From an uncultured virus (IMG/VR IMGVR_UViG_3300016472_001133) (lineage: Duplodnaviria > Heunggongvirae > Uroviricota > Caudoviricetes): a stretch of DNA of 64,000 nucleotides. Location: IMG/VR virus record IMGVR_UViG_3300016472_001133; one strand, 5' to 3'. Below are positions 1 through 16,713 of this stretch, one piece after another (the first letter of the stretch is position 1; every line of letters begins with the position of its first letter). Both the position numbers and the translations under genes were made by a program. Below the pieces are notes generated by a model. The model was not told where the DNA came from, searched no databases, and saw only the letters and a program-made list of their open reading frames with translations.

Positions 1-233
1 TCTTGTTTGAGGTTGTTCACTAGTGAATCTGGGTTGGGTGATGGTAGGATGAGAAAGTTGGAGTTGATGATTTGCCCCATACCTGTTCCGCAGGAGATTC
101 CGAGTTTATCGATGAACAGTGAGATTCTATCACCATCCCCTAGAGGATCGAAGAAAACAGCACAGGGAATCCCCTTGAAGTGGGTTTCCATCCAGAGTTG
201 AACCAGATCGATTCGGGTTGGTGTGGTGTTCAT
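1..233 (-). CDS. Hypothetical protein, runs off left edge (MNTTPTRIDLVQLWMETHF...)
   Basis: ATG at 233 sits 6 nt after the -10 of the promoter at 240-269; frame open to the edge. Confidence 0.65.
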   Translation of the reverse strand, partial: MNTTPTRIDLVQLWMETHFKGIPCAVFFDPLGDGDRISLFIDKLGISCGTGMGQIINSNFLILPSPNPDSLVNNLKQ

Positions 234-239
234 ATTTTT

Positions 240-269
240 ATTCTATCATCCCCCCGCGGAATTTTGCAC
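240..269 (-). promoter_or_regulatory. Phage promoter, leaderless type
   Basis: GTGCAAA-N17-TAGAAT-N6-ATG. Confidence 0.75.
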
Positions 270-518
270 CCAAACATATAGGTTAACCACCCCATCCAGT
301 TCATATTTTCCGGTGCGGAACCCGATTTTCTCCATGGAAGTGAGCCATGAGCCGTGGGCATTCTTCTCATCCCACCGAGAATCGTGGGTATAACCACCGG
401 TACACAACCAATTACCACCAACCTCAGGTTTTCTAAAACCACGGTTCTTACCTGATTTAATTTGTGGAAGGGAGGAAATACCTCCGTTGGTATCCCTCCC
501 AAGTTGCTCGAGTTTCAC
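246..518 (-). CDS. Hypothetical protein
   Basis: GTG start overlaps stop of upstream gene (GTGA). Confidence 0.55.
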   Translation of the reverse strand: MKLEQLGRDTNGGISSLPQIKSGKNRGFRKPEVGGNWLCTGGYTHDSRWDEKNAHGSWLTSMEKIGFRTGKYELDGVVNLYVWVQNSAGG

Positions 519-742
519 TTTGGATCTACTTTCAATAATTCCATCATCAAAACAGTGTTTTGATTCATACCGGAACAACACGTATCCAGGATCAAATTAT
601 TTCCACTTGGAAATAGAAGGGTTAACCTCTCGGTGTTTCTAAACTCACCTTCACCTGGATTACCTTCCTCATCCAGATTTTCATAGGTGTAAAAAACAAT
701 ATCTCCCTTCTCCACCAAAAAATCAAGTGATTCGTTTTTCAC
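515..742 (-). CDS. Hypothetical protein
   Basis: ORF coupled by 4-bp overlaps. Confidence 0.65.
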   Translation of the reverse strand: MKNESLDFLVEKGDIVFYTYENLDEEGNPGEGEFRNTERLTLLFPSGNNLILDTCCSGMNQNTVLMMELLKVDPK

Positions 743-1170
743 TTTGGATCCTTTCCAATTCTTTCAAACACCCGAGTAAATCCACCTGCGCACCTCCTCC
801 AGGCGGAATGTGGATGATAACCTGATTCACGATCCAGTTTATCGATCAACTGGAATACCTGATCAAGGTTTACATTTCCCCCAAAAACTTCCTGAGGATC
901 TCCATCACAATCAACAATGAGAATGAAATCCCCGCTTGGAGGTGAAACAGGTTTTACCTTTGGAATTTCCTCCGAGGGAATCAATTTTGTGATCCACTCA
1001 TAATCCACCAGTAACCTACCAACCTCTCTTACACCACCTTCCTGAGTAAAAAGTGTTGCTCCACTTGGATCTGGAATCCATTCCTCATGATCCTTGAACC
1101 AATATCGGTTTTTGGTGTTGGAATCAAAGGGATCTTTGTATTTGATCAGGTATTTTTGATCGGGATTCAT
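739..1170 (-). CDS. Hypothetical protein
   Basis: 143-aa ORF, 4-bp overlaps on both sides. Confidence 0.75.
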   Translation of the reverse strand: MNPDQKYLIKYKDPFDSNTKNRYWFKDHEEWIPDPSGATLFTQEGGVREVGRLLVDYEWITKLIPSEEIPKVKPVSPPSGDFILIVDCDGDPQEVFGGNVNLDQVFQLIDKLDRESGYHPHSAWRRCAGGFTRVFERIGKDPK

Positions 1171-1454
1171 AGTTCATCCTTTGGAATAACCTTGAAGGAA
1201 TCTGTGTGGTACCCAAACTTCACTAGGCCATCCTTACCCACAAAAACACCGTGGCCTGGCATACCAATCACTTCACCGAGGAATAGAACTGGTTCACCGT
1301 TCTTCCAGGGGTACTGGTTCTTCTCATCCCATTCCTTGGGGAGATGAGGTGTTACCATCCGGTTGGTGATTGGAACGGGGCCATACATCCTTTTCACAAG
1401 ATCATCAAGATCTTCCCAGGTTTCAACTTGTTCGTAATCATTATATAGAATCAC
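1167..1454 (-). CDS. Hypothetical protein
   Basis: Coupled ORF. Confidence 0.7.
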   Translation of the reverse strand: MILYNDYEQVETWEDLDDLVKRMYGPVPITNRMVTPHLPKEWDEKNQYPWKNGEPVLFLGEVIGMPGHGVFVGKDGLVKFGYHTDSFKVIPKDEL

Positions 1455-1630
1455 TTTTCATCCTCCTCGAATTGATGGTAACCAACCAGATCACAAATTT
1501 CACGAATGAAATCCGGTGAATTTAGGATGATCCTATCCGATTGGTAGATGGATTCGGAACAACCTATCTCATTATCTCGTATGAATTTTTGGCAGAGAAG
1601 AAGAAGTTTTTCTCGGGTTTCATGATTCAA
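1451..1630 (-). CDS. Small hypothetical protein (59 aa, TTG start; below ORF-track cutoff)
   Basis: Fills the gap exactly, with TTGA and GTGA overlaps. Confidence 0.55.
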   Translation of the reverse strand: MNHETREKLLLLCQKFIRDNEIGCSESIYQSDRIILNSPDFIREICDLVGYHQFEEDEK

Positions 1631-1815
1631 TCGTAATCGTTTTGGAACTCAAGGGTGAGTAGATCACCTTCCAACTTCGTTTCAAACCTACCGAACTTCA
1701 TAACTTCCTTCAGGAATGTTTCGGTATCATTTGGAAAATTATGGATTGAATCAAATGAACCAAACCTGGATTGGAGTTCAGAATCCCAGTATCGAGCAGT
1801 AACTTTGGCTTTCAT
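1627..1815 (-). CDS. Hypothetical protein
   Basis: ORF in the minus-strand run. Confidence 0.65.
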   Translation of the reverse strand: MKAKVTARYWDSELQSRFGSFDSIHNFPNDTETFLKEVMKFGRFETKLEGDLLTLEFQNDYD

Positions 1816-1818
1816 GAT

Positions 1819-2076
1819 TCAATCCTCTGTGTTTGGTTTTGGGAAACTCCGTTCATCATCAATCAACCCTTCATGTTGAAAGAAGATGTTCTCGGCTTCT
1901 TTGAATAGAGAACGGAGATCCTCATAACCCATCTCAATTGAATTAGTTCTTTCTCCGTGCCCATCGGTGATGGATACCGAAAATTGCTTGTATTCAGGTG
2001 AGTAGTGGATCGAGATGTTGTTCTCTTCCGAATCTTGAAAGTTGGTTGAGTAAAATCCCATCTTCTTCTTCCTCAT
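1819..2076 (-). CDS. Hypothetical protein
   Basis: ORF in the minus-strand run. Confidence 0.65.
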   Translation of the reverse strand: MRKKKMGFYSTNFQDSEENNISIHYSPEYKQFSVSITDGHGERTNSIEMGYEDLRSLFKEAENIFFQHEGLIDDERSFPKPNTED

Positions 2077-2079
2077 GGT

Positions 2080-2445
2080 TCACCATCGATCTCGATCAAC
2101 GGAATCCCTGAACACCCTTCGGATGGAATCCATTTGATCCTCTAGTTTTTCCAGGCGATCCTCTAGCCCAACCACCTTGGTTCGAAGAACCGTGATACAT
2201 TCACGAGGATCCTCATGTTGTTCATGAAGTTCACCGCAGTAATCACACATGGAATCCTTGATGTATTGTTTCAGTTCTTCCTCACTGGGTTCAACCTTTT
2301 GGTTCTTCCCACAGGAACACCTGTATTCAACCTCGAAATCCCAGGTTTGGTAGTTATCCTTTGGGCTCTTTGGGCCTTTTACCCAGGAATGAAACTCCCA
2401 GAAGTGTTTGTGTTTTGGTTTCTTAGGGGTTTTCTTGGTTTCCAT
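2080..2445 (-). CDS. Hypothetical Cys/His (possible Zn-binding) protein with coiled-coil tail
   Basis: HxH, CxCG and CxxCG motifs; leaderless start. Confidence 0.7.
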   Translation of the reverse strand: METKKTPKKPKHKHFWEFHSWVKGPKSPKDNYQTWDFEVEYRCSCGKNQKVEPSEEELKQYIKDSMCDYCGELHEQHEDPRECITVLRTKVVGLEDRLEKLEDQMDSIRRVFRDSVDRDRW

Positions 2446-2451
2446 GGTTCT

Positions 2452-2481
2452 AGTATATCATCACCCCGCGGAACTTTACAC
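2452..2481 (-). promoter_or_regulatory. Phage promoter, leaderless type
   Basis: GTGTAAA-N17-TATACT-N6-ATG(2445). Confidence 0.8.
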
Positions 2482-2670
2482 TTAACCCACGAGATGCCGA
2501 TCCGATTTAAACTCTTTGATGAAGATCCAGATGAGGTTCCACAGTGAAGTTCCGATGTACAGATAAGCACCGTGGGAACAACACCAACACCTACCTTCAC
2601 TAATTTCACCGGGTTTTGAACGGAAGAACCTGGGGAATCGGGGTGGAGAATATAGAGGGATTGGGTTCAA
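2482..2670 (-). CDS. Hypothetical protein
   Basis: Coupled ORF. Confidence 0.5.
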   Translation of the reverse strand: MNPIPLYSPPRFPRFFRSKPGEISEGRCWCCSHGAYLYIGTSLWNLIWIFIKEFKSDRHLVG

Positions 2671-2918
2671 TGTGTAACTCCAACATTCTGGGAAGAAATC
2701 GGTTTCATGGTTAAGATCATGTTCACTTTCTCGATAACATCCCTGCTCATCTGGAGGATCTCCTTTGCTTTTCCTTCATCAAAGTTTTCTGGATATTCCC
2801 CAGTTTCCAGGGCATGGCCCCAGAATGAGATCGAGTGGTGAAGTGATGCCCGGATCACCATGAAATCCTGTTGGGTTACAGGAACCGAAACTGTTTCTGG
2901 TTGATTATCTCCGCTCAT
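2667..2918 (-). CDS. Hypothetical protein
   Basis: Coupled ORF. Confidence 0.65.
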   Translation of the reverse strand: MSGDNQPETVSVPVTQQDFMVIRASLHHSISFWGHALETGEYPENFDEGKAKEILQMSRDVIEKVNMILTMKPISSQNVGVTH

Positions 2919-3307
2919 GGTTTCTCCCTCAATTCCTTGGTGATTCTCACATCGGTGATTCCATTATCCCTCAACACTGTTGCTCCGGTGAAACCAAGTT
3001 CCACATCAGGAACAACACTAATGGAATCATTTGGGATTTTAACATCCATTTGGTGTGCATAGTGGTTCATCACATGGATGATCCGAGGAACCATATCCCA
3101 ATTGTGGGTAAGAATGGTGAACTTTAATTCAGGATTCTCCACAACCTTCTGGATTGTTTCAATAATCATCCGAGTTGTTCTCCCGGTTTGGCGGAGCCCA
3201 AAACACTCGGTGTTTCCTTCCTTCATGTTCTCATCATATCTCTTTACAAAAAATTCCTTTGGATCAAGAAATTCCCTCAATCCATCATTCACCAAGATCT
3301 TCTTCAT
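2915..3307 (-). CDS. Hypothetical protein with degenerate P-loop-like RQTGRTT
   Basis: GLRQTGRTTRMI motif; coupled ORF. Confidence 0.6.
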   Translation of the reverse strand: MKKILVNDGLREFLDPKEFFVKRYDENMKEGNTECFGLRQTGRTTRMIIETIQKVVENPELKFTILTHNWDMVPRIIHVMNHYAHQMDVKIPNDSISVVPDVELGFTGATVLRDNGITDVRITKELREKP

Positions 3308-3615
3308 GGTTCCTCCTCCACTTTTAGATTCTCCACCGCGTTCCGGAGATTATCGATCTTTTCCAGGAGGATATCCTTATTGAAACCCACGAAACCTGGA
3401 AGTGTATCGATCACCCTCACAACCTCCACCGGAAGGTGGGAAAGGCTCTGGTACCTGATCACCTCACCACCGTTAACGGTTACCAACAATCTCTTTGGAA
3501 CATCCTTCTCCTGGATCGGTTCCGTAACCTGGATCATGGTAACCAAACGAGGAAGAACGTTATCCTCCTGTGGTTTTACACCATCAAACACACCGCTTAG
3601 ATCAATGTTATTCAT
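3304..3615 (-). CDS. Hypothetical protein
   Basis: Coupled ORF; start refined to MNNIDL. Confidence 0.6.
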   Translation of the reverse strand: MNNIDLSGVFDGVKPQEDNVLPRLVTMIQVTEPIQEKDVPKRLLVTVNGGEVIRYQSLSHLPVEVVRVIDTLPGFVGFNKDILLEKIDNLRNAVENLKVEEEP

Positions 3616-3829
3616 TAGTTTCTCCCACCTTCGTTTCAATGGTTAGAATAGGTTTTCCATTAGAATCCAGTTTGATATTCTTCAGGTTGATCTCAATTGG
3701 TTCAATTGCATCAGGAACCAATCCTCCCAATCTTGCCATCTGATTATGGTGTTTCAATGCAATACCAAGATCAGATTCATTTTCAATCCTGTGATCAGTT
3801 TGGATGCTCTCAACCTTAAGTTTCTTCAT
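3608..3829 (-). CDS. Hypothetical protein
   Basis: Coupled ORF. Confidence 0.6.
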   Translation of the reverse strand: MKKLKVESIQTDHRIENESDLGIALKHHNQMARLGGLVPDAIEPIEINLKNIKLDSNGKPILTIETKVGETNE

Positions 3830-4101
3830 GGTTCCTCAGGGATTGGTTCGTAGCAGTAATTAATAATCGTGAAATCTGGTGAAACAACTGTGATGCTCAC
3901 CGAATCTGGTGAACTGGAACTTCCTACTTCCCTATAAAACCTACCATCGGTACTAATGGTATGTTTCTTATCTGAACTACCTTCCTCATCCTCATAATGA
4001 ATGAATGCGGAATTACCGATCCAATAGATGGTTTCACACCCTTCATTCTCAACCTTTTGAACAATTCTAGGTGATCTTTTGATCTTTGTTACTTTCTTCA
4101 T
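3826..4101 (-). CDS. Hypothetical protein
   Basis: Coupled ORF. Confidence 0.65.
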   Translation of the reverse strand: MKKVTKIKRSPRIVQKVENEGCETIYWIGNSAFIHYEDEEGSSDKKHTISTDGRFYREVGSSSSPDSVSITVVSPDFTIINYCYEPIPEEP

Positions 4102-4172
4102 GGTTCATCCTCCTCATCAATTTCCACCCCAACATGTTGTAGAAACTCGGAGAAGAATTCTAAATGTTTCAT
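4098..4172 (-). CDS. 24-aa mini-ORF MKHLEFFSEFLQHVGVEIDEEDEP
   Basis: Follows TGTAAA-N17-TATGGT; its stop overlaps the ATG of the next gene. Confidence 0.45.
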   Translation of the reverse strand: MKHLEFFSEFLQHVGVEIDEEDEP

Positions 4173-4242
4173 ATTTCTAACCATATCAAAGGTTCTATTA
4201 AATTTACAAAAAGAATCTTTTTTCTTATCTTTACTTATATTT

Positions 4243-5214
4243 ATGGTAATGGAGATAAGAGGAATGTTTTACGTTTATGTGGATTATCGTGAAGATGATG
4301 GAAAACCTTTTTATGTAGGAAAAGGAACTAAATCGAGAATTAAAGATCTAAATCGAAATCAACTTCATGAAAGAATAAAAAACAAGCATGGGATAATCAG
4401 AAAAATTGATTCTGAACATGTTGATGAAAATGAAGCTTTTAAAAGAGAAATTGAGCTTATCCAAGAGCTTGAAACACATGTTGATTTTGGAAAAGGTGGA
4501 TCAAATTTTACCTTTGGTGGAGAAGGTTGTGTTGGGATAAGTGAAGAAAGCAAAGAAAAAATAAGAAACTCCGTAAAATCAATATGGGAAGATGAAGAAT
4601 ACAAGAGAAAAACTAGTGAATCAATTAAAAAATCAATGCAAGAGATTTGGAATGATTCTGATTCGAGAGAAAAACTTGGAACGAAGTTTTCTGATTTAAC
4701 AAAAAAAGCATGGGAAAATTATGAATTTAGAGAGAAACAAATAGAAGCAAGAAAAGATGAAGAGTACAGAAAAAACATAAGTGAAAAAACAAAAGAGATT
4801 TGGGAAGATCCTGAGCATAAATCATCTCGAAAAGCTTCTATGAAAAAGGCGTGGGAAGATCCTGAGCTTAGAAAAACGTTGAGTGATTCTTTGAAGAAAA
4901 CCTGGGAAAATCCTGAGCTCAGAGAAAAGATGAGTGAGTTAAATAAGAAAAGATGGGAAGATCCTGATTACAAAGAAAAAACTAGAGAATCAATAAAGAA
5001 AGCAGTAAACAAACCTGAATATAAAAAAAGATCCAAACAGATCGCAAAAAAACAGTGGGAAGATCCTGATATAAGAGATTTAAGAATCAAAAAAATGAAA
5101 GAAGCTCATAGCAAAAGAACCCCTGAACAAAAGAAAGAACACCTTAAAAAGTGTTGGGAAACAAGAAGATTAAACAAGCTTAAAAAAGAAGCTGAGGGAA
5201 AAGATTCTAATTGA
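4243..5214 (+). mobile_element. Free-standing GIY-YIG homing endonuclease with WEDPE helical (NUMOD3-like) repeats
   Basis: FYVYVD...PFYVGKG..R...E motif; repeated KKxWEDPE; AT-rich and opposite strand to its neighbours. Confidence 0.8.
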
Positions 5215-5234
5215 TCTTTTAGATCTCTGTTCTT

Positions 5235-5738
5235 TTATTTCTTCTCATCCAACTTTCTCATGTTCCAAATCTTTTTGGGATCATATTCCAAGGAATATCG
5301 AACGGATCCACCTTCACTATTTTCTGGAATCTGGGATTCAATATCCTGGATAAGTTGTGAGTGATAATCAGGATCCAATTCGATCTCCCATGGGATTCCT
5401 TCCTCATCCTTCACCACAACCTTCACACCAACCCTTGGAGATGGTTGAGGAATATTTTCTTCATCCTCATCAGGTTCAACCCCAACAAATTCAATGAATT
5501 TTTGGAACCATTCCAGGATTTCAACATCATCATGGTAATTGATTGAGAGAAAAGAAGAATCCCATTCGTTGGATCTCCAGTGCCAAAAATCGATCACCTC
5601 GGATTCACTAACAAAAACACCAAGGTTTCTCTGTAGAACCTCTTGGATAAACTTCACATCACCTGGATCATGGTACAACCCAGAGGTTCCATTCCTACAC
5701 TGGAAGGTTTTGGTTACAAGATCTTGATTGATTTTCAT
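5235..5738 (-). CDS. Hypothetical protein
   Basis: 167-aa ORF with no Ala. Confidence 0.75.
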   Translation of the reverse strand: MKINQDLVTKTFQCRNGTSGLYHDPGDVKFIQEVLQRNLGVFVSESEVIDFWHWRSNEWDSSFLSINYHDDVEILEWFQKFIEFVGVEPDEDEENIPQPSPRVGVKVVVKDEEGIPWEIELDPDYHSQLIQDIESQIPENSEGGSVRYSLEYDPKKIWNMRKLDEKK

Positions 5739-5926
5739 GGGATATCGTTGGTGATCGAATTGATCTCGATCAACTTTCTCCTGAGGGTTTCAACCGTAAC
5801 CTTTAGGTTTCCGATGCAGGTTACCTTATCATCGTGAAAGTATGAACCTTTGAACTCGATGAATTCCTTTCCTTCAGGAATCAGATCACCGCAATTGGAA
5901 CAAAACTTTGATTTTGATTTCTTCAC
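5735..5926 (-). CDS. Small Zn-ribbon-like protein
   Basis: CSNCG...HxxxxxC. Confidence 0.6.
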   Translation of the reverse strand: MKKSKSKFCSNCGDLIPEGKEFIEFKGSYFHDDKVTCIGNLKVTVETLRRKLIEINSITNDIP

Positions 5927-6114
5927 GGTTTATCCTCCTCCCAAGGAACCGATTGGATCTGAAATGAACTAAAATCTTCCTTGTACATCTTTTCGTTATC
6001 GTTCAACCAAACCTCTGCCTTCTTCTTTGAACTATGAGCACTAAGGCACTTAATCCTACCACACTCATAATCAGGATCCGGAGTTGATTGAACTACGATC
6101 CAAATCTTCTTCAT
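5923..6114 (-). CDS. Hypothetical protein
   Basis: Coupled ORF, start MKKIWIV. Confidence 0.6.
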   Translation of the reverse strand: MKKIWIVVQSTPDPDYECGRIKCLSAHSSKKKAEVWLNDNEKMYKEDFSSFQIQSVPWEEDKP

Positions 6115-6386
6115 TGTTTCTCCTCCACCTTCATTGATCCCCAATCCACACGAAGTGATTCAGGATCGATTCCCAACTCTACGCACTTCTCCTTGAGGAT
6201 GTTCTCGTACAGGTTCCTTATGTATTCCCGATCACTATTAAACTGTTTCTCAAGGATCTCACGGGATTGATTCTCACCGATGTGTTGGGTTCCTAGGGCT
6301 TCTCTGATCTTCCTGGAGATGTAATCGATTTCATCGTGAACCCCAAGATCGATTTCCTTGCACGGATTTTTATCGGAATTGCTCAC
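6111..6386 (-). CDS. Hypothetical protein
   Basis: Coupled ORF. Confidence 0.65.
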   Translation of the reverse strand: MSNSDKNPCKEIDLGVHDEIDYISRKIREALGTQHIGENQSREILEKQFNSDREYIRNLYENILKEKCVELGIDPESLRVDWGSMKVEEKQ

Positions 6387-6604
6387 TTGCTCTCCTCCAC
6401 CTTCATCTCATCATTCACCAGAATTTCAAGATCATCAAGTTCCTGGAACTGGGTGTTGAGGATAGAAAGAACCCTTAAGATCCTCTTGGATGTGGTTCCC
6501 TTTGCGGTGCTCTTGATCCAGTGTTCATCATGAATTTTTTGAAGATCCATGATCAACACATCGAGATCATGAATCACATCATTGATGTTCTTGGGGTTGC
6601 TCAT
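6383..6604 (-). CDS. Hypothetical protein
   Basis: Leaderless start after promoter 6611-6640. Confidence 0.7.
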   Translation of the reverse strand: MSNPKNINDVIHDLDVLIMDLQKIHDEHWIKSTAKGTTSKRILRVLSILNTQFQELDDLEILVNDEMKVEESK

Positions 6605-6610
6605 GGTTCC

Positions 6611-6640
6611 ACCTTATCATCCTCCCGCGGAACTTTGCAC
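6611..6640 (-). promoter_or_regulatory. Phage promoter, leaderless type
   Basis: GTGCAAA-N17-TAAGGT-N6-ATG(6604). Confidence 0.7.
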
Positions 6641-6943
6641 ATCCTCACCAACCTTTAGGATCTTCATGACTTCCTTTAGATCCTCTGGAAACTCACCGCA
6701 CCGGTTTCGGTTCATTTCCTCCAGGAGCTCCACAATCATTTCCCGGTAGGAATCCGGGTGGTACTTGGAATCGGTGAAGTTAACCACCATTCTATCCTGA
6801 ACATCAGGTAGTTTTAGAAACCATTCCCCAATGTGAGGTGGTGCGAGGAAGAACAATTCCAATAACTGGTGGTTTTCCTTGGTGATTCCTTGTTCCGGTG
6901 CGAGTGGTGGATCAAGATGAATTTCATAACGGGATTTATTCAC
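6617..6943 (-). CDS. Hypothetical protein
   Basis: Coupled ORF. Confidence 0.65.
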   Translation of the reverse strand: MNKSRYEIHLDPPLAPEQGITKENHQLLELFFLAPPHIGEWFLKLPDVQDRMVVNFTDSKYHPDSYREMIVELLEEMNRNRCGEFPEDLKEVMKILKVGEDVQSSAGG

Positions 6944-7212
6944 TTCGAATCTCCTGGGGGTGGTGCATGTAACCCGGCCTCCAACTTTCCGTAATCATGG
7001 AGGATCCTCTCGAGGTGTTCCTGGAGAAGTTCCGTTAGAAACTCACCCGTGTAACCAAGGTGGGCCACCATCAACTCTACCCGGCTCGGGGCAGGAGAAC
7101 CACCTAGAGGGGAATCTTTAAAATGTAGGTGTTCATCACTATCCAACCCACGCCTGATTAACTCGGAAAACAAACAACTCAACCACTTCTCGGTATCGAT
7201 TTCTTTGCTCAT
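6940..7212 (-). CDS. Hypothetical protein
   Basis: ORF with purine-rich RBS-like leader. Confidence 0.65.
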   Translation of the reverse strand: MSKEIDTEKWLSCLFSELIRRGLDSDEHLHFKDSPLGGSPAPSRVELMVAHLGYTGEFLTELLQEHLERILHDYGKLEAGLHAPPPGDSK

Positions 7213-9546: not shown

Positions 9547-10440
9547 ATGGAAATTGAGAAGAAATTCTTCGTGTATGTTGATTTCAGAGGTGATGATAGA
9601 AAGCCCTTCTACGTTGGGAAAGGTGATGAAAGTAGAGTTAAAGATCTAGAAAGAAATCATCTTCACACAAGAATCAAAAACAAGCATGGGATCATCAGAG
9701 AAATTGTTTTTGAAACTCGCAGTGAGCAAGAATCATTTGAGAAAGAGATTCAACTCATTGGGGAACTTCAAACATATGTTCATCATGGAAAAGGTGGAGC
9801 GAATTTTACCCTTGGTGGAGATGGTGTTTCAGGATACAAGTACACTGAAGAAGTTAAAAAAAAGATGAGTGAATCACATAAAAAAAGGCTCGAAGATCCT
9901 GAACAAAGAAAAAAACATCAGGAAAAAAGTAAGAAGATGTGGGAAGATCCCATGTTCAAAAAAAAGATGCGTGAATCACATAAAAAAAGGTGTGAAGATC
10001 CTGAACAAAGAAAAAAGATGAGCGAAACTCAAAAGAAAATGTGGGAGGATCCTGAGCACAAGGAAAAGATGAGTAAATCTAGAAAGAAGGTGTGGGAGGG
10101 TCCTGAACGCAGGGGAAAATTAAGCGAATCAGTAAAGAAACAGTGGGAAAATCCTGAATATAGAGAAAAGATGAGAGAATCACATAAAAAAAAGTGGGAG
10201 GATCCTGAGTATAGAGAAAAGATTTCTGAATCCAGCAAGAAAAAGTGGGAGGATCCTGAGTATAAAGAAAAGATTTCTGAATCGAGTAAGAAAATGTGGG
10301 AGGATCCTGAGCACAGGAAAAAGATGAGTGAAATAAGAAAGAAACAGTGGGAAAATCCTGAATATAGAGCAATGGTGAAGGAAAAACAGAGATTAGGGCG
10401 GGAAAAGAAAAGGTTAGAAAAACTTCAACGGGAAGGTTGA
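9547..10440 (+). mobile_element. Free-standing GIY-YIG homing endonuclease, paralog of 4243-5214, with ten 17-aa repeats
   Basis: FVYVDF...PFYVGKG; KKxWEDPEYREKMSES repeats. Confidence 0.8.
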
Positions 10441-10456
10441 AAAAGTTTTCCTAGAT

Positions 10457-10720
10457 TCACTCTGCCTCCCCAACTAATTTGTTCTCACTCACCCATCCGA
10501 AAACCTCACCACCGAAAAACAGAACCTTACACTGTTCCTCTTTTATCTCCACCACGATTCCAATTGAACCACCCGGAACCTTACCGATGAAACTCCGAGG
10601 AACTATGGATTCTCCAGCCCAGCGGATCTTCTCCGGGAAATCGTAAATTCGATGTTGATCCGTTGGGTGATTTGGATCAGATCTGATCCGAACCGAATCA
10701 CCGGGGTTAAATTTACTCAC
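10457..10720 (-). CDS. KOW/SH3-like array member
   Basis: FNPGDSVRI. Confidence 0.7.
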   Translation of the reverse strand: MSKFNPGDSVRIRSDPNHPTDQHRIYDFPEKIRWAGESIVPRSFIGKVPGGSIGIVVEIKEEQCKVLFFGGEVFGWVSENKLVGEAE

Positions 10721-10917
10721 CCAAACACCTCAATCTCATACTTCTTCCCGATACTGTTCACTGGAACATAAATCATCCGCCCGGTTCCAAGTTCCAGAAC
10801 ATCATAGAAATCAGAACCGAATTCATTGGATTTCCCAACAACAATCCCACCGTTCCGTAACTCATCTCGGTGTGGTAGGAGATAGATTCTGATTAGATTT
10901 CCAGGAGATAATTTCAA
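10717..10917 (-). CDS. KOW/SH3-like array member
   Basis: LSPGNLIRI. Confidence 0.65.
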   Translation of the reverse strand: MKLSPGNLIRIYLLPHRDELRNGGIVVGKSNEFGSDFYDVLELGTGRMIYVPVNSIGKKYEIEVFG

Positions 10918-11123
10918 GATATCCTCTCCACAAAATTATCCCGGAATAGTTCCGATGTTTTTCCACCCCAGAACACGGTGTAATAATCTCCGTATTCATC
11001 GCGGTTCTCATGGATTTTCACCACCAAACCCGGCCCGGATAGGCGGAAAGTTGCAACCTTGTTTCCAACGGTTACCCTAACGGTATCACTCACCATCCAC
11101 AACTCACCGAGGTTCGGTTTCAT
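10914..11123 (-). CDS. KOW/SH3-like array member
   Basis: MKPNLGELWMV. Confidence 0.6.
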   Translation of the reverse strand: MKPNLGELWMVSDTVRVTVGNKVATFRLSGPGLVVKIHENRDEYGDYYTVFWGGKTSELFRDNFVERIS

Positions 11124-11331
11124 TGATCCTCTCCACCGCCCAACGGTTACTCCACAACCAAACCAACCCATCCGGGCCGAGAACATTATATTCGGATGGA
11201 TTCCATTCATTCCTTCTACTCCCCATCCACATCCCCACAAACGGTGGAGAATCCACTTCAGGATTGTTTTCCCATTTGAAAGGGGTACAAATAACTGGAT
11301 CACCTAGAGATAAAAGTGTTCTATTTTTCAT
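11104..11331 (-). CDS. KOW/SH3-like array member
   Basis: LSLGDPVI. Confidence 0.6.
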   Translation of the reverse strand: MKNRTLLSLGDPVICTPFKWENNPEVDSPPFVGMWMGSRRNEWNPSEYNVLGPDGLVWLWSNRWAVERINETEPR

Positions 11332-11525
11332 CTCACCAACTCCAGTGAATCCGGGCAGAGGTACCTAAAAACAGGAACCCCGGAAATCATGAGGAAAACC
11401 TTGGTGTAACACATCCTCCCGGAACGGAGGTTCTCATCCACATGCTCGATAACGGTGGCAAGTTTTCCATCAATATCACCATCGGTTTTGGAGGAGATTC
11501 GAACCATATCACCTGGTTTTCTCAC
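11328..11525 (-). CDS. KOW/SH3-like array member
   Basis: MRKPGDMVRI. Confidence 0.7.
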   Translation of the reverse strand: MRKPGDMVRISSKTDGDIDGKLATVIEHVDENLRSGRMCYTKVFLMISGVPVFRYLCPDSLELVR

Positions 11526-11728
11526 CCCAACACCTCAATCCCATCCTCCGGAACCAGAATAAAATCCTGAATTTCCCCGTTGGTTTCCAACATCCGAATA
11601 TTGAAAGATTTTTTATGGGTATCCTTGATTGGTTCCACGGGGCAAAAATGTAGTAGAACACCGGTGGTGGTGTTGATCTTCCAATCCTTGAAGAACCGAG
11701 TGATTCGAATAAGATTTCCGATCTTCAT
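11522..11728 (-). CDS. KOW/SH3-like array member
   Basis: MKIGNLIRI. Confidence 0.7.
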   Translation of the reverse strand: MKIGNLIRITRFFKDWKINTTTGVLLHFCPVEPIKDTHKKSFNIRMLETNGEIQDFILVPEDGIEVLG

Positions 11729-11994
11729 CTCACCAACTCCAGATCACATCTTTTAATCCAACCGATTCCTGAGGAACATAGAACCTTGATCCAGGTGGTT
11801 TGAACGTGAAGAGGTAGGTTATCATCGGAAACATATCTTTGTTCAAGAACCATTCCAACCTCGGTGTAACGGAACCTCCCGGTGTGGTTCTTCCTGTAGA
11901 TTGAAGTGAAATCCGGTGGATCATCCCAGAGGATCTTGTAATCCTCGTTACCTTCCAACTCAGGAATTAAACGAACTTGTGATCCAGGTTTCAC
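11725..11994 (-). CDS. KOW/SH3-like array member
   Basis: VKPGSQVRL...GIGWI. Confidence 0.7.
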   Translation of the reverse strand: MKPGSQVRLIPELEGNEDYKILWDDPPDFTSIYRKNHTGRFRYTEVGMVLEQRYVSDDNLPLHVQTTWIKVLCSSGIGWIKRCDLELVR

Positions 11995-12239
11995 AGTAGA
12001 ACCTCCACCCAATTCTCATTTGCCCAACCGATTCCCCGAGGGGTGAGAATCTTGAGGAAGGTTGCGTAAGGGTACATCCCAGTGTTCACATGGGATTCCA
12101 ATATCAAACCGGTATCTGAGAATCCAAACCGAATATCGGTGGGGATGAGGTTAATGGTAATTGGGGATTCAGGATGGTATAACCAGTAGGTGTTACCTTT
12201 ATCACCATCCTTCACACTAACCATATCACCAGGTTTCAT
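11991..12239 (-). CDS. KOW/SH3-like array member
   Basis: MKPGDMVSV. Confidence 0.7.
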   Translation of the reverse strand: MKPGDMVSVKDGDKGNTYWLYHPESPITINLIPTDIRFGFSDTGLILESHVNTGMYPYATFLKILTPRGIGWANENWVEVLL

Positions 12240-12429
12240 TGTGGTTCAATACCTCGGTTCCATGGGAACGAATCCATTTAATTCTACCACTGGAATCCAG
12301 AATTTTGCACTTATCTCCCCCATCAAAATCATCGAGGAATATCTCAAGTATCAATCCTGTATCCCAGGTGATATCCCTGGTGATTAGTTTCCTCCCGGTT
12401 CGGAAACGAACTAGATCTCCAACTCTCAC
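12226..12429 (-). CDS. KOW/SH3-like array member
   Basis: MRVGDLVRF. Confidence 0.7.
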   Translation of the reverse strand: MRVGDLVRFRTGRKLITRDITWDTGLILEIFLDDFDGGDKCKILDSSGRIKWIRSHGTEVLNHNETW

Positions 12430-12617
12430 CGGATCACCTCAAAACTCCAACGATCCACCGGGTAACAAACAATGGTTCCGTTGGAATTGATCATCTGGAT
12501 TCCATGATAAGAACCATAGTGATTGAAACACCTGATTACCTCCGGTTTGTAACACACCACCACCTCACCCTCTCCTGTTTTTTGATGGGTGATTTTTACC
12601 AGATCACCCCGTTTCAT
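12426..12617 (-). CDS. KOW/SH3-like array member
   Basis: MKRGDLVKI. Confidence 0.7.
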   Translation of the reverse strand: MKRGDLVKITHQKTGEGEVVVCYKPEVIRCFNHYGSYHGIQMINSNGTIVCYPVDRWSFEVIR

Positions 12618-12817
12618 GGTACCTCCGAGAGGAGTGTTAGGTTTTCCCATATGAAAGGAATGAAATCTTCGTTCCAGAAAACGATACAATCACACTCACC
12701 TGCAACCTGATCTCCCCATTCATCCAGTGGAACCTTATCACTCCAGAATATCCCCACACGGGGTTCATGTGGTTCCAGAAAATCCGCGGAGATTAAAACC
12801 AAATCTCCGGGTTTCAT
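12614..12817 (-). CDS. KOW/SH3-like array member
   Basis: MKPGDLVLI. Confidence 0.7.
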   Translation of the reverse strand: MKPGDLVLISADFLEPHEPRVGIFWSDKVPLDEWGDQVAGECDCIVFWNEDFIPFIWENLTLLSEVP

Positions 12818-13041
12818 CTCACCAACTCCAGGTGGAAGTTATGGATCCACCCCATTGCCCCGCGGGGAGTTAAAACCTTGAAGTGGATGTATTCCCCGTT
12901 CCCTTGGCTCTCCAGAACCAATCCTATATCATTCCGGTAGAACCTTTCACCGTTCTCTATTCGGTTCAGATCATCCTCCTCATACATGTTAACGTAACTC
13001 TTGTGGGAGGGGCTGAGTTGAACCATATCACCGATTCTCAC
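12814..13041 (-). CDS. KOW/SH3-like array member
   Basis: MRIGDMVQL. Confidence 0.7.
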   Translation of the reverse strand: MRIGDMVQLSPSHKSYVNMYEEDDLNRIENGERFYRNDIGLVLESQGNGEYIHFKVLTPRGAMGWIHNFHLELVR

Positions 13042-13223
13042 TGGAGATTCCTATAGGTACTTCTGAATCCATTCATCTCCCACTTCACGGTGGAGTTTCC
13101 AAGTAGAACCTCAACCATGTTCCAGGAAACGCGGAGAACCACACCGATCTCAGGGGTGTAACGGTGGATAACCAGGGATCCAGGTACCACCTGATTGATA
13201 CTGGGGATATCATTGTTTCTCAC
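13038..13223 (-). CDS. KOW/SH3-like array member
   Basis: VVPGSLVIH. Confidence 0.65.
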   Translation of the reverse strand: MRNNDIPSINQVVPGSLVIHRYTPEIGVVLRVSWNMVEVLLGNSTVKWEMNGFRSTYRNLQ

Positions 13224-13393
13224 CCCACAACCTCCAACATCTCCTTGGAATACCGGAAAACCTTATAGAGATCAGGTTGGCCGAGCAACCAAACCCGGTA
13301 CAAACCAGTTCCACCTTGAATATCGATAATCAACCCGAGTGAATCTGTTCTGTAGCCTTTCACTTTTACCAAATCACCTGGAGATGGAATCAT
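13220..13393 (-). CDS. KOW/SH3-like array member (57 aa, not in ORF track)
   Basis: Translated by hand: MIPSPGDLVKVKG...MLEVVG; overlaps both neighbours by 4 bp. Confidence 0.7.
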   Translation of the reverse strand: MIPSPGDLVKVKGYRTDSLGLIIDIQGGTGLYRVWLLGQPDLYKVFRYSKEMLEVVG

Positions 13394-13590
13394 TCCACCA
13401 CCTGGAAATGATATGAATCCTGAGGATAGTGGTTTATCTTCCCGTCGGAATCGATAACCTTTATGGTTTCACCACTGAACTTAATGTTTTTGTGCTCCAG
13501 GTAGATCCCAAACTTCCACCCGGATTCACGGTAAATCGGATCCATTAGATCAACAATATGGATGAATTTGAGAAGATCCCCAGGTTTCAT
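13390..13590 (-). CDS. KOW/SH3-like array member
   Basis: MKPGDLLKF. Confidence 0.7.
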   Translation of the reverse strand: MKPGDLLKFIHIVDLMDPIYRESGWKFGIYLEHKNIKFSGETIKVIDSDGKINHYPQDSYHFQVVE

Positions 13591-13820
13591 GTTTCATTCT
13601 CCAGGAAAATAAGATTAACCCAACCGATCTTCCCACCGGATACCATGATCCGTGCCCCGTTTCCACCTCGAGGTTGGGTTGTTTCAAGAACAACACCGAT
13701 CTCACCTGGTTGAATGGTTCCAATGGGTTTATCACCACCTTCCTTGTTTCCCCAGGTGGAAAAAAGTGGTGTGGAACTATAAACTTTCTTCATCCTCACC
13801 AAATCACCAATGCTAAACAT
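13587..13820 (-). CDS. KOW/SH3-like array member
   Basis: MFSIGDLVRM. Confidence 0.7.
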   Translation of the reverse strand: MFSIGDLVRMKKVYSSTPLFSTWGNKEGGDKPIGTIQPGEIGVVLETTQPRGGNGARIMVSGGKIGWVNLIFLENET

Positions 13821-14004
13821 CCCAACTCAACCTCTCAAAGTATTCACTGGAAACTAGTTTAACTCCACACTGGGTTAAAACATCATAAAATCCACGGTGA
13901 TTCCTACCTTCTCTATCCACAATCGGTTTCTCACCGAGGAGAATCCCCAAACCCCAATCAGAATAGATGGAAACGTTGAATCGAACCAAGGTTCCCCTTT
14001 TCAT
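13813..14004 (-). CDS. KOW/SH3-like array member
   Basis: MKRGTLVRF. Confidence 0.7.
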   Translation of the reverse strand: MKRGTLVRFNVSIYSDWGLGILLGEKPIVDREGRNHRGFYDVLTQCGVKLVSSEYFERLSWDV

Positions 14005-14225
14005 TCCACCACCTCCACATCCAACCGGTAAACCCAACGGATTCCCCAGGGAAATAGAACCTTACAAACATCCTGGCCCCACTGATTCTTGTGTTCCTCC
14101 AATAGAAGGAATGTTTCACCCTTTATCGTGTGTGTTTCCCATGAATCACATTGGGGCTCCCTGTAGATCCGAACCACACCAACCTGGATTTTACTCTTTG
14201 CCTGGAGAAGATCACCTAGAATCAT
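14001..14225 (-). CDS. KOW/SH3-like array member
   Basis: MILGDLLQA. Confidence 0.7.
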   Translation of the reverse strand: MILGDLLQAKSKIQVGVVRIYREPQCDSWETHTIKGETFLLLEEHKNQWGQDVCKVLFPWGIRWVYRLDVEVVE

Positions 14226-14418
14226 TGGTGATCCTCACGTAGGATTTCAAAAGGTTACTCACCAATTCCTGGGTGATCTTACCATCATACCAGGCCACAT
14301 ACACGGTACGGAAACCTGGATCAGGATCAGATAAAACAATCCCCTGGGAATATCTTCCACCCGGTGGAACATATGAACCCGGTGCCACGAGGAGTAAATC
14401 ACCAACACAAAAACTCAC
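14212..14418 (-). CDS. KOW/SH3-like array member (close paralog of 16480-16677)
   Basis: VGDLLLV..PPGGRYSQG. Confidence 0.7.
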   Translation of the reverse strand: MSFCVGDLLLVAPGSYVPPGGRYSQGIVLSDPDPGFRTVYVAWYDGKITQELVSNLLKSYVRITNDSR

Positions 14419-14603
14419 AGAGGATCCTCCGAAAGATCGTGTTTCTGGTAAGTAAACTTTTCACCGGTGTTTGGATCCACAACCACGAAGTAGGGATACG
14501 AAGAAAGCCCTACCTTGTAGATATCAATGATGATTAACGGTTTTGTTGGAGGAACAAAGAGAGAATCCCTCACGAAAACCATATCACCGAGAGATAGTTT
14601 CAC
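14415..14603 (-). CDS. KOW/SH3-like array member
   Basis: LSLGDMVFV. Confidence 0.65.
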   Translation of the reverse strand: MKLSLGDMVFVRDSLFVPPTKPLIIIDIYKVGLSSYPYFVVVDPNTGEKFTYQKHDLSEDPL

Positions 14604-14791
14604 TTCATCACCTCGAAGTTCCAAACCAAATGGTTTCCGAAATCAACATCTTTAATGATTCCGGTGTTCAACACGAACCTCCCCTCATAAGGTTGTCTCT
14701 TCTCATCAAATCTATTGGATGGGCCGAGATAAACACCAATGAAAGGTATCTCATCGAAACGAGTTAACCTAACCAGATCACCTGGTTTCAC
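14600..14791 (-). CDS. KOW/SH3-like array member
   Basis: MKPGDLVRL. Confidence 0.7.
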   Translation of the reverse strand: MKPGDLVRLTRFDEIPFIGVYLGPSNRFDEKRQPYEGRFVLNTGIIKDVDFGNHLVWNFEVMK

Positions 14792-15015
14792 TGGATCACC
14801 TCAAGCCACAGGGTCCAGTTAACCCAGCCGATCTTACCATCACACAGAACCTTGATCCAGGTTCCGTTAGGCGGGGTGAGAACAGTACTGATGGAATCCA
14901 TAGGAATTCCTTCCTTCGGAATTCCACGGTTAACACTTTCCGCGGTGAGATAAAAATGCATATAGCAACGGTTTCTAACCAGAACACCTGGAACCATACC
15001 GGAACTGGGCTTCAT
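14788..15015 (-). CDS. KOW/SH3-like array member
   Basis: MVPGVLVRN...KIGWV. Confidence 0.7.
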   Translation of the reverse strand: MKPSSGMVPGVLVRNRCYMHFYLTAESVNRGIPKEGIPMDSISTVLTPPNGTWIKVLCDGKIGWVNWTLWLEVIQ

Positions 15016-15224
15016 TCCATCACCTCGTTGAATCGATCGGAGGAGAAAACCATCATTTTATTGTGGGAAAACTTACTGGAAATTACTTCCACATAGTGAA
15101 CATCCTGAGATACTCCATCGATGGGGTTTCCAACCACCATGAAGATCTCATCTTGATCACCCATGTACTCATTCCAACGGTACAGTTTTCCAACCTGAAG
15201 TTCATGTACCCGGATGATCTCCAT
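15012..15224 (-). CDS. KOW/SH3-like array member
   Basis: LQVGKLYRW; leaderless start. Confidence 0.7.
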   Translation of the reverse strand: MEIIRVHELQVGKLYRWNEYMGDQDEIFMVVGNPIDGVSQDVHYVEVISSKFSHNKMMVFSSDRFNEVME

Positions 15225-15230
15225 GTTACC

Positions 15231-15260
15231 AGTATATCATCCCCTCACGGTGTTTTGCAC
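15231..15260 (-). promoter_or_regulatory. Phage promoter, leaderless type
   Basis: GTGCAAA-N17-TATACT-N6-ATG(15224). Confidence 0.8.
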
Positions 15261-15626
15261 TCAACTAAATTCCCCAATGATAAGATCATATGATTCATTT
15301 CCATGCCCAACACAGTGATCCCCATCATGTCTCTGTGGATCCATTCCCTCAGGTGACCATTTTCCAGGGCCACGAGTGGTGATGATCTTCAACATGTCCT
15401 CGGGCCGGACAACCTCATCATATTCATTGAGGATCTTGGTGTCAGGTTTATCCCAGGCCAACTTCCAATCATCCAAGGAATTGATACCTTCCTCAGGAAT
15501 GATGTGAAGGGAGAAACACCAACCATAGGAGGATTTTCCTATGTGTAACACCTTGGCACCGGGGTCATGCCCACAGTGTTCACACATCGAGGTTGATTTT
15601 TGGTGGAGATAATAGTTTGTACCCAC
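15261..15626 (-). CDS. Hypothetical phage protein (MGTNYY..CxxC..LHIGKSSxGW)
   Basis: 121-aa ORF, not a member of the array family. Confidence 0.75.
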   Translation of the reverse strand: MGTNYYLHQKSTSMCEHCGHDPGAKVLHIGKSSYGWCFSLHIIPEEGINSLDDWKLAWDKPDTKILNEYDEVVRPEDMLKIITTRGPGKWSPEGMDPQRHDGDHCVGHGNESYDLIIGEFS

Positions 15627-15629
15627 GGT

Positions 15630-15881
15630 TCACTTTCCTCCCAGAATCTCTTCCACCAGTAGCTCAGGTTCCCCTCTTCTCTCCGTTGCTCTCCAAGGTA
15701 AGGAACCCCTCTCTGCCCTTCGGAGTTGATCCACGGAATTCAATTCCTCAATCCGATACACCTCGGATCCACAGTTCCTAACCTCGGATTCTAGGTTTCT
15801 ATCCCCAATCCTCTCGGCCTCACGTTCATCACGGGCATCGATGAGGATTTCTGTATGGAATGTTACTCTATAGAGCGGCAT
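15630..15881 (-). CDS. Hypothetical protein
   Basis: ORF in the minus-strand run. Confidence 0.65.
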   Translation of the reverse strand: MPLYRVTFHTEILIDARDEREAERIGDRNLESEVRNCGSEVYRIEELNSVDQLRRAERGSLPWRATERRGEPELLVEEILGGK

Positions 15882-15884
15882 TGT

Positions 15885-16100
15885 TCAATATTCCTTGATG
15901 ATCTTTTTTGAGGTTTTGAAACCATCCCAATCCACGGTAACCTTCTCTATGATGATTGGATCACCTGGATCATAATGGGGAGATTCTCGAATCCATGTTT
16001 CGGAGAACTTCTCCACATCACCTTTCTCCCCGCTTTGGGCAAGAATCTTTCCTGATTTGGTGGAGGAAATGAAGTAGTGATGCCCTCTTTTGTTCTTCAT
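15885..16100 (-). CDS. Hypothetical protein
   Basis: ORF in the minus-strand run. Confidence 0.6.
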   Translation of the reverse strand: MKNKRGHHYFISSTKSGKILAQSGEKGDVEKFSETWIRESPHYDPGDPIIIEKVTVDWDGFKTSKKIIKEY

Positions 16101-16119
16101 GATGTTATCCTAAATCATC

Positions 16120-16308
16120 CTACGGTGGATTTTCACCGGGGAGGGAGAGGTAGTGATCAGAGATGATTTGTTTCCTACCATTGTGGAGTAGAACGGAGAA
16201 GAAACGGTGATCGATTGAGATGTTGTGGTGTTCCTCGGTGATTATCCCGAGTGTGGGGGAGATCATCCTCTGGGGATTGGTGTAGAGAACGAGATCACCA
16301 ACTCTCAC
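16120..16308 (-). CDS. KOW/SH3-like array member
   Basis: MRVGDLVLY. Confidence 0.7.
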   Translation of the reverse strand: MRVGDLVLYTNPQRMISPTLGIITEEHHNISIDHRFFSVLLHNGRKQIISDHYLSLPGENPP

Positions 16309-16493
16309 TCAACCTCCTGGAGATCCGATTCTCGGCAGTGAAGAACTCCGCGTTCCGGAAACAATACCTTCCAGTGGGGGAACGGATCATTTCCACGGGA
16401 TTCATGGGGGATGTGTTCCAGGATGATCCCAATATCACCAGGAAGATCCATTTGAAATCTAGCTCTCCACACAACGAGTTTACCGGGTTTCAC
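16305..16493 (-). CDS. KOW/SH3-like array member
   Basis: MKPGKLVVW. Confidence 0.7.
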   Translation of the reverse strand: MKPGKLVVWRARFQMDLPGDIGIILEHIPHESRGNDPFPHWKVLFPERGVLHCRESDLQEVE

Positions 16494-16677
16494 TGTTGAT
16501 CACCGTGTAGTACTTGGAAACATTACCCAAAAATTCCCTTGTGATCTTACCATCCCGCCACGCGATGGTGAGAAAACCCAGAGAGGTAGGGTTTGTTAGA
16601 ACAACACCCTGGGAATATCGGCCACCAGGCGGAACATGAGTTCCAGGATTCACCAGGAGAAGGTCACCGAGCTTCAT
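16480..16677 (-). CDS. KOW/SH3-like array member
   Basis: MKLGDLLLV; leaderless start. Confidence 0.7.
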   Translation of the reverse strand: MKLGDLLLVNPGTHVPPGGRYSQGVVLTNPTSLGFLTIAWRDGKITREFLGNVSKYYTVINSETR

Positions 16678-16683
16678 GGTTCT

Positions 16684-16713
16684 ATAATATCATCATCCCC
16701 CGGTGTTTTGCAC
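16684..16713 (-). promoter_or_regulatory. Phage promoter, leaderless type
   Basis: GTGCAAA-N17-TATTAT-N6-ATG(16677). Confidence 0.8.

What the first reader, a model, noticed from the sequence alone, without database searches (positions are those of the whole stretch)
1..16700. A ~16-kb domain purged of GC and GAC/GTC, strongly enough to strip alanine from its proteins
Seen: in a hand-counted sample (10441-10740) CG occurs 14 times, GC 3 times and GAC/GTC never. Asp is almost always GAT. ORFs 2080-2445 (121 aa) and 5235-5738 (167 aa) contain no Ala, and the embedded endonuclease segments I checked also avoid GAC. The bias is weaker in the transglycosylase gene and fades near 16.7 kb, in the middle of the same paralog array, so it tracks position rather than gene family. 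Inference: this is the first-injected or first-transcribed DNA. It may be selected to lack host restriction targets, or to lack the contexts (GC, GWC) modified by the phage's own cytosine-modification cluster at 51-58 kb so that host RNA polymerase can read it.
Basis: partly seen in the sequence, partly recalled or inferred. Interest (0 to 1): 0.72.

Follow-up and report, generated by a model that had tools for sequence, protein, structure and literature searches.

The report
Phage gene module avoiding paired cytosines
A 20-kb block of small genes in a group of large uncultured phages avoids precisely spaced pairs of cytosines on opposite DNA strands, which looks like the footprint of bacterial enzymes, not yet identified, that attack the phages' chemically modified DNA.

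Summary
The domain runs from about -4,100 (left of the window) to 16,650. It holds 30 GAC/GTC in 20.4 kb, 1.5/kb against 23.4/kb elsewhere. The loss is at synonymous and codon-boundary positions. New here: two gapped palindromes, D-C-N7-G-H and G-H-N4-D-C, are also avoided (o/e 0.35 and 0.30 over 151.5 kb of 26 related domains), but not when either C follows another C. GC, GWC and both gapped words are thus pairs of non-CC cytosines on opposite strands at offsets -1, -2, -7 and +8. The domain is a shuffled array of small-gene cassettes, 7-21 kb long, found in 5 of 10 related jumbo-phage records. Inserted genes are purged in place. The main early-promoter cluster is not purged, and a complete relative lacking this glycosyltransferase keeps the pattern; both facts argue against the RNA-polymerase idea. 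Best reading (0.45): selection against host enzymes that read two modified cytosines, acting on DNA exposed first. Host, enzymes and genome ends are unknown, and the module's map position is not fixed.

The parts
1..16650 (.). Purged domain, window part; it continues to about -4,100 (G000:C1 about 124,050-144,800). Avoids GWC, GC, D-C-N7-G-H, G-H-N4-D-C and, more weakly, RCGY
16650..19400 (.). Shoulder: same gene array, GC still low (o/e 0.61 against a synonymous null), GWC and dyads near normal (0.8-0.9)
10457..19418 (-). Tandem array of 55-95 aa genes with overlapping stop/start codons. One member models as an all-beta SH3-like barrel (pLDDT 78.5; SH3 domains top the list but none reaches E 0.001). 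Cassettes recur in shuffled order in relatives at 70-100% DNA identity
246..7769 (-). Small genes of unknown function, no Pfam hit among those scanned; includes the Ala-free ORFs 2080-2445 and 5235-5738
7776..9416 (-). Transglycosylase (PF00912), partly purged: 8 GWC against 33 in an unpurged homolog (322 of 513 aligned residues identical)
4243..5214 (+). Homing-endonuclease-like gene (phrog_314), 0 GWC
9547..10440 (+). Homing-endonuclease-like paralog, 1 GWC; a third copy at -1648..-668 still has 6
240..270 (-). Promoter-like site GTGCAA-N17-TAGAAT; further copies near 12309, 15259 and 17997 (consensus matches only)
51971..52972 (-). dCMP-type thymidylate-synthase homolog (hydroxymethylase or hydroxylase): best PDB hit is CMP 5-hydroxymethylase, E 8.5e-44; Asp at both diagnostic positions; a separate ThyX lies elsewhere in the genome
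56695..57720 (-). GT-B-fold glycosyltransferase; T4 beta-glucosyltransferase 1qkj is rank 6, TM 0.64; DNA as substrate is inferred from its neighbours
52974..53936 (-). NDP-sugar epimerase/dehydratase (a second copy at 55698-56687)
57722..58246 (-). dNMP-kinase-like gene of the modification cluster

Best explanation
Shown: a 7-21 kb module of small shuffled genes is held nearly free of four double-stranded words, each a pair of cytosines on opposite strands, neither preceded by C, at offsets -1 (GC), -2 (GWC), -7 and +8. The constraint acts on whatever gene sits in the module. Inferred: the phages replace C with a 5-hydroxy(methyl) derivative and decorate it. Host dimeric modification-dependent enzymes (type IIM/IV-like nucleases or glycosylases, probably several) cut where two such bases stand at fixed spacing. 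The module is the DNA that meets those enzymes unprotected, most simply because it enters the cell first, and its small proteins disarm the defence before the rest is exposed. Step odds: selection by a dsDNA dyad reader about 0.85; host and modification-dependent about 0.6; first-entering DNA about 0.55.
For: Exact spacing: D-C-N7-G-H 0.35 with neighbouring spacings at 1.36 and 1.14; G-H-N4-D-C 0.30 with neighbours at 1.34 and 1.28; 26 non-redundant cores, 151.5 kb. CC-type partner not avoided (0.95 and 1.2), and a 3' C does not lift the avoidance. At synonymous Asn/His/Tyr/Phe/Ile sites C is used 65% of the time normally, 30% and 27% when it would complete a dyad, 64% and 78% when the partner is CC-type, and 0.5% for Asp; outside the domain 38%, 41%, 34% and 30%. 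Both strands are equally affected. Purging in place: TnpA/TnpB insert unpurged, one endonuclease gene and the transglycosylase partly purged, others fully. All 5 domain-bearing records whose modification region is assembled carry the dCMP-type enzyme. Precedents read: PvuRts1I family needs two Cs on opposite strands; T4 alpha-GT modifies only one of two adjacent hmC; RM sites matter only in first-injected DNA of T5-like and Autographiviridae phages.
Against: No terminus was mapped, and 56 purged contig ends show no common break point. Terminase, portal and capsid are T4-like, and random headful packaging would give no fixed leading DNA. The module lies 0.85 kb, 12-18 kb or about 70 kb from a conserved non-coding tract, on either side of it. 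No enzyme I read about has these spacings; PvuRts1I-type 20-23 nt spacings are at 0.87-1.01. No unmodified relative carrying the module was found as a control. G006 (91% complete) has a cytosine cluster but neither module nor depletion. The host is unidentified. No module protein has a known anti-defence family.
Confidence: 0.45

Rival explanations
1. T5-like self-sparing: a phage nuclease made from first-step DNA shreds the host chromosome at these words, and the module avoids them to survive its own attack.
For: Endonuclease-like genes sit in the module: 3 copies in G000, and the 3 closest homologs among 11 loci examined all lie in purged DNA. How T5-like phages spare their own DNA is stated to be unclear.
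Against: The complete 7.5-kb module of L243 and the G007 module show no such gene. Modified C would be expected to protect the phage's DNA without purging (inference). One nuclease is unlikely to read four spacings.
Confidence: 0.15
2. Donor pool: the cassettes circulate through an unseen element (satellite, plasmid or other phage) that is purged genome-wide, and the jumbo phages inherit the composition.
For: Cassettes are mosaic and up to 100% identical between records. Core G+C is 38-50% while flanks range from about 35% to 68%, and edges in L243 fall at gene borders. The position varies.
Against: 0 of 80 capsid-gene loci are purged (lowest GWC o/e 0.69). No replication or integration gene among 21 families of larger ORFs in the cores. 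Asp and Val C/T sites differ in 1 of 515 and 0 of 364 aligned codons while Asn/His/Tyr/Phe/Ile sites differ by about 13%. Graded purging of inserts. It moves the question rather than answering it.
Confidence: 0.15
3. The reader is a host short-motif nuclease that ignores modification, for example an infection-triggered effector, and the module survives it.
For: Dyad symmetry and fixed spacing fit any dimeric nuclease. G007 has different predicted chemistry yet the same words.
Against: A host could hardly protect every GC and GWC of its own genome (inference). Every avoided word reduces to a pair of C:G base pairs with the same 5' rule, as expected for a base-modification sensor.
Confidence: 0.1
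4. One reading: the words are the contexts that the phage's own enzymes modify, and are avoided so that host RNA polymerase can read early DNA.
For: The module holds promoter-like sites. Phage glucosyltransferases can be context-dependent.
Against: 11 promoter copies at -70.2 to -66 kb lie in DNA with GWC o/e 0.95, and likewise in G003, G004 and G007. G007 lacks the glycosyltransferase and has a carbamoyltransferase, a family reported to have no NCN preference, although it carries other glycosyltransferases elsewhere. A transferase needing a partner C 7-8 bp away on the other strand has no precedent known to me.
Confidence: 0.07
5. Local mutational erosion (C to T in these contexts) rather than selection.
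For: The enriched trinucleotides ATC, AAC, ACC and CAC are the transition products of the lost words. GAC is replaced by GAT in 7 of 7 aligned Asp codons.
Against: In the same gene C is gained elsewhere (AAT to AAC 8 of 9, ATT to ATC 7 of 7, TTT to TTC 11 of 15). C-ending codons are favoured in the module. A mutagen keyed to a second C at exactly -7 or +8, and confined to one module, is hard to picture.
Confidence: 0.06

Closest known systems
First-step-transfer region of T5/BF23 (PMC10644984, passages read)
   Same: A block of roughly 10 kb of small unknown genes in which defence targets matter while they are tolerated elsewhere.
   Different: T5 DNA is not hypermodified and the targets are 5-8 bp RM sites. 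Here the words have 2-4 informative bases and shift codon use. No terminal repeat or two-step injection is shown.
Early-injected region of Murciavirus/Autographiviridae against type I RM (PMC12455610, abstract and Discussion read)
   Same: Selection at sub-genome scale on a variable, gene-swapping region.
   Different: One long type I motif and a T7-like fixed end. Here several degenerate C-pair dyads in T4-like-head jumbo phages.
PvuRts1I/AbaSI family (PMC3627594, passages read)
   Same: Dimeric enzymes needing two cytosines on opposite strands at a fixed distance, acting on (glucosyl-)hmC.
   Different: Their spacing of 21-22 nt is not avoided here; the spacings here are -1, -2, -7 and +8.
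BisI-family methyl-directed type IIM enzymes (PMC8281217, passages read)
   Same: Short palindromes whose cleavage depends on modified Cs on both strands (GCNGC, RYNRY, RYNNRY).
   Different: None of the sites I read matches GWC, D-C-N7-G-H or G-H-N4-D-C.
Leading region of conjugative plasmids (PMC13478746, abstract read)
   Same: First-entering, GC-richer DNA with anti-defence genes.
   Different: Reported as not consistently depleted in short palindromes; here the depletion is about 16-fold for a trinucleotide.

Membership tests
First-injected (FST-like) region with target avoidance | Defence-like target words depleted in one sub-genomic block only | tested here: met
   1.47 against 23.41 GWC/kb; one block per genome in G000, G003, G004 and G007
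First-injected (FST-like) region with target avoidance | Lies at a fixed physical genome end or in a long terminal repeat | tested here: inconclusive
   Assemblies run through both edges (G000, G007); 56 purged contig ends share no break point; no read data examined
First-injected (FST-like) region with target avoidance | Constant position relative to the genome backbone | tested here: not met
   The module lies on opposite sides of the early cluster and conserved tract in G004 and G007, and 0.85 kb from the tract in L242
First-injected (FST-like) region with target avoidance | Dense small early-type genes with host-type promoters | tested here: met
   (consensus matches only; a plain sigma-70 scan gave 29 against 32.9 expected)
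First-injected (FST-like) region with target avoidance | Stepwise injection and anti-defence activity of the encoded proteins | not testable with these tools
   no cultured relative
Cytosine-hypermodifying phage | dCMP-specific thymidylate-synthase homolog (Asp at N177 and L143 equivalents) plus a separate dTMP synthase | tested here: met
Cytosine-hypermodifying phage | Adjacent glycosyltransferase, sugar-nucleotide enzymes and dNMP kinase | tested here: met
Cytosine-hypermodifying phage | Modified base detected in virion DNA | not testable with these tools
   needs LC-MS or nanopore data
PvuRts1I-type target avoidance | C pairs 21-22 nt apart on opposite strands are depleted | tested here: not met
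   gaps of 20-23 nt at 0.87, 1.00, 0.90 and 1.01
Type II RM site avoidance | Depletion concentrated in defined 4-8 bp palindromes | tested here: not met
   GAC is lost in all 16 flanking contexts (o/e 0-0.12), while CCGG is enriched and GGCC is the least affected GC word

The most novel reading that the evidence does not exclude
A clade of cytosine-modifying jumbo phages carries a movable module, possibly one that brings the genome end with it, kept invisible to still-undescribed host enzymes that read two modified cytosines at -1, -2, -7 or +8 stagger. The phage sequence thus spells out the specificities of unknown anti-modified-DNA defences, and the dozens of shuffled SH3-like cassettes in it are their antidotes.
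Probability: 0.35. Interest if true: 0.9.

Novelty: new variant of a known kind. Interest (0 to 1): 0.8.

Why it matters
Site avoidance in leading DNA is known for ordinary RM targets in unmodified phages. Here it appears in phages that seem to modify C, against words so short that avoidance rewrites codon use, and it yields exact, testable recognition geometries for enzymes I could not match to any described one. The same conditional-codon test could be run on any modified phage to find leading regions and to predict the defences they face. It also challenges the assumption that phages with T4-like heads have no fixed first-exposed DNA.

Tried and rejected
Amino-acid composition as the cause: rejected. 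RNA-level cutters: rejected, both strands are equal. Hairpin effects: rejected by inference, since GG-N4-CC is spared (0.87) while GA-N4-TC is lost (0.12). A 3'-neighbour effect of C: not found. PvuRts1I-type spacing: not depleted. Terminus from contig ends: no common point. A conserved G/C- and A/T-tract element as the terminus next to the domain: distance not conserved and its flanks unpurged. Host from a PrkA homolog search: top hits in mixed MAGs (Bdellovibrionota, Halobacteriovorax, Luteolibacter), possibly binned phage DNA, uninformative. Cultured relatives: portal at best 40% identical; no hit for the glycosyltransferase or one cassette. Same-ortholog inside/outside test: only 3 of 62 families in both states, inconclusive. 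G006 as a negative control: it lacks the array altogether and is 91% complete, so it cannot serve. Atlas, Pfam and PHROG searches gave no function for cassettes. Four look-ups of earlier scan findings returned nothing. Passages of PMC12191111, PMC6765204, PMC6212794, PMC12707154, PMC11078745 and PMC11014532 gave no matching specificity.
Full report
1. The observation. In window 1-16000 GAC/GTC stands at 0.04 of expectation, GC at 0.29 and CG at 0.61, against near 1 in 20001-64000. The window lies in a 211-kb linear virus record, G000. The domain is unique in it and extends past the window's left end: change points for GWC are -4,100 and 16,650, for the two gapped words -3,550/-3,800 and 16,550/16,450, and for GC -3,250 and 19,400. 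In 54 domain ORFs (my choice) the loss survives nulls that keep the protein and the codon usage: codon-boundary GC 59 against 198, out-of-frame GAC 8 against 75, out-of-frame GTC 4 against 94. In 21 outside ORFs all ratios were 0.93-1.09. Alanine is 1.6% inside, 2.1% in 13 shoulder ORFs and 6.6% outside, so part of the scarcity belongs to the protein family. A pentapeptide-repeat gene in a related domain keeps 17 Ala with 0 GWC.

2. The real motif. A gapped-pair scan of four genomes showed C-N7-G and G-N6-C depleted in each. The loss needs both cytosines, one on each strand, to be preceded by A, G or T. With a CC-type partner the ratio is 0.95 and 1.2, and a 3' C does not lift it. GWC and GC obey the same rule at offsets -2 and -1; RCGY is also low (0.06-0.51 across cores). 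Over 26 non-redundant cores (26 of 33 kept, 151.5 kb, chosen on GWC density only, so GWC itself is circular there) the ratios are 0.35 and 0.30, with neighbouring spacings at 1.14-1.36. Strength varies between lineages and the two gapped words co-vary (rho 0.88, n 20). In 463 heuristically called ORFs a synonymous C is chosen 65% of the time when it makes no word, 30% or 27% when it completes a dyad, 64-78% when the partner is CC-type, and 0.5% for Asp. Outside the G000 domain there is no such effect.

3. Anatomy and spread. G000 has a T4-like terminase, portal, capsid and sheath, a DnaE-type polymerase and ThyX; no cultured phage is close. The domain is a one-strand array of small genes, many predicted to be SH3-like (weak fold match), with a transglycosylase and three endonuclease-like genes. 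I read 9 related records almost whole. The domain is in G003, G004, G007 (complete) and at the start of G008. It is absent from G001, G002, G005, G006 and G009, which are linear, 45-91% complete and also lack the array. G010 was not read. Of 32 metagenome loci carrying a homolog of 11725-12012 (some redundant), 31 have GWC o/e at or below 0.19 around the match; the other straddles an edge. In L243 the whole domain is about 7.5 kb, with edges at gene borders and 57-68% G+C flanks. Cassettes recur in different order at up to 100% identity.

4. Place, not gene. SH3-like genes carry 0.5 GWC/kb inside (n 212) and 23.8 outside (n 49); only 3 of 62 families occurred in both states, so the ortholog-level test is weak. 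A TnpA/TnpB insert in the G007 domain is unpurged (19 GWC/kb) and one G000 endonuclease gene partly purged (6/kb). The transglycosylase has 8 GWC against 33 in a homolog from unpurged DNA, and differs from it by GAT for GAC but AAC, ATC and TTC for AAT, ATT and TTT. Of 16 endonuclease-homolog loci I examined 11 (5 weak or duplicate left out): the 3 closest are purged in purged surroundings, the 8 distant ones are not. 0 of 80 capsid loci are purged.

5. The modification cluster. 51971-52972 is closest to CMP 5-hydroxymethylase and has Asp at both positions that mark dCMP use; homologs of this type can also be hydroxylases. 56695-57720 models as a GT-B glycosyltransferase. G003, G004 and the record behind L014/L192 share both genes. 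G007 has the dCMP enzyme with a carbamoyltransferase and no homolog of this transferase, yet the same words; it has other glycosyltransferases elsewhere.

6. Where it sits. The densest promoter-like cluster (11 copies) is about 66 kb from the domain in GC-rich, unpurged DNA, also in three relatives. It points to a conserved non-coding tract found in G001, G003, G004, G007 and L242. The domain's distance and side relative to that tract differ. Contig ends give no terminus, and no read data were examined. 'First-injected' is therefore an inference from precedent; it needs the end-defining signal to travel with the module.

7. Mechanism. Palindromic, exactly spaced, strand-symmetric avoidance points to dimeric DNA readers. 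Restriction to C pairs in phages that appear to modify C points to modification-dependent enzymes. Restriction to one module of small variable genes points to unprotected early exposure. Odds: this reading 0.45; own nuclease 0.15; donor pool 0.15; modification-blind host nuclease 0.10; own-modification/RNAP 0.07; mutation 0.06.

8. Literature. Seen: PMC12455610 abstract and Discussion; PMC13326640 passages and one section; PMC13478746 abstract; passages only of PMC10644984, PMC3627594, PMC8281217, PMC8670742, PMC13160076, PMC6212794, PMC6765204, PMC12707154, PMC12191111, PMC11078745 and PMC11014532. Ten searches showed no listing that describes this clade's domain or these spacings; the library lacks most subscription papers, and no supplements or REBASE tables were read, where such specificities could stand. 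Which C of a CC pair T4 alpha-GT skips was not found. The likeness of the MKIT..QLR.II.EE N-termini to T4 capsid-targeting sequences is recalled, not tested.

9. Verdict. A real, strong and clade-wide feature with a sharper rule than first reported. It works like leading-region target avoidance but fails the fixed-position test, and its agent is unidentified. New variant of a known kind; interest 0.8.

Noticed in passing
G001:C1 ~350; G003:C1 ~206,400; G004:C1 ~76,400; G007:C1 ~87,850; L242:6620-6850: Conserved non-coding tract of alternating G/C runs and A/T runs at the border of the GC-rich early cluster; early promoters point toward it. Candidate origin or packaging site.
   Followed up: partly
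G000:C1 ~206,600-210,900 (window -70,200 to -66,000): Eleven near-identical GTGCAAAG-N-TATACT promoter-like sites in 57% G+C DNA of a 40% G+C genome.
   Followed up: partly
window -3409..-26 and -44055..-43591: Four genes share an N-terminal MKI[ST]..QLR.II.EE motif, three of them at the domain's downstream end; it recalls capsid-targeting leaders of injected head proteins (recalled, untested).
   Followed up: no
G007:C1 180,600-184,600; G006:C1 63,600-69,400; G005:C1 80,500-90,400: The modification cluster is exchanged between relatives: carbamoyltransferase in G007; another putative transferase and a methyltransferase-like gene in G006; extra oxidoreductases in G005.
   Followed up: partly
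window 58256-63165: DnaE-type polymerase gene split around an intein-embedded endonuclease ORF (intein pieces on both flanking ORFs).
   Followed up: no
window 63446-63898; L006:8779-13217; window 37278-38531: Volactin-like actin, a PrkA/SpoVR/DUF444 trio and isocitrate lyase are carried by this phage.
   Followed up: no
window 22135-24453: 772-aa Cys-rich protein with an internal (C.W)-rich tandem repeat and no Pfam hit.
   Followed up: no
L225:913-1782 and L281:5293-5748: Module genes with an H-x-T/THE pattern that recalls ADP-ribosyltransferase folds (recalled; no Pfam hit).
   Followed up: no
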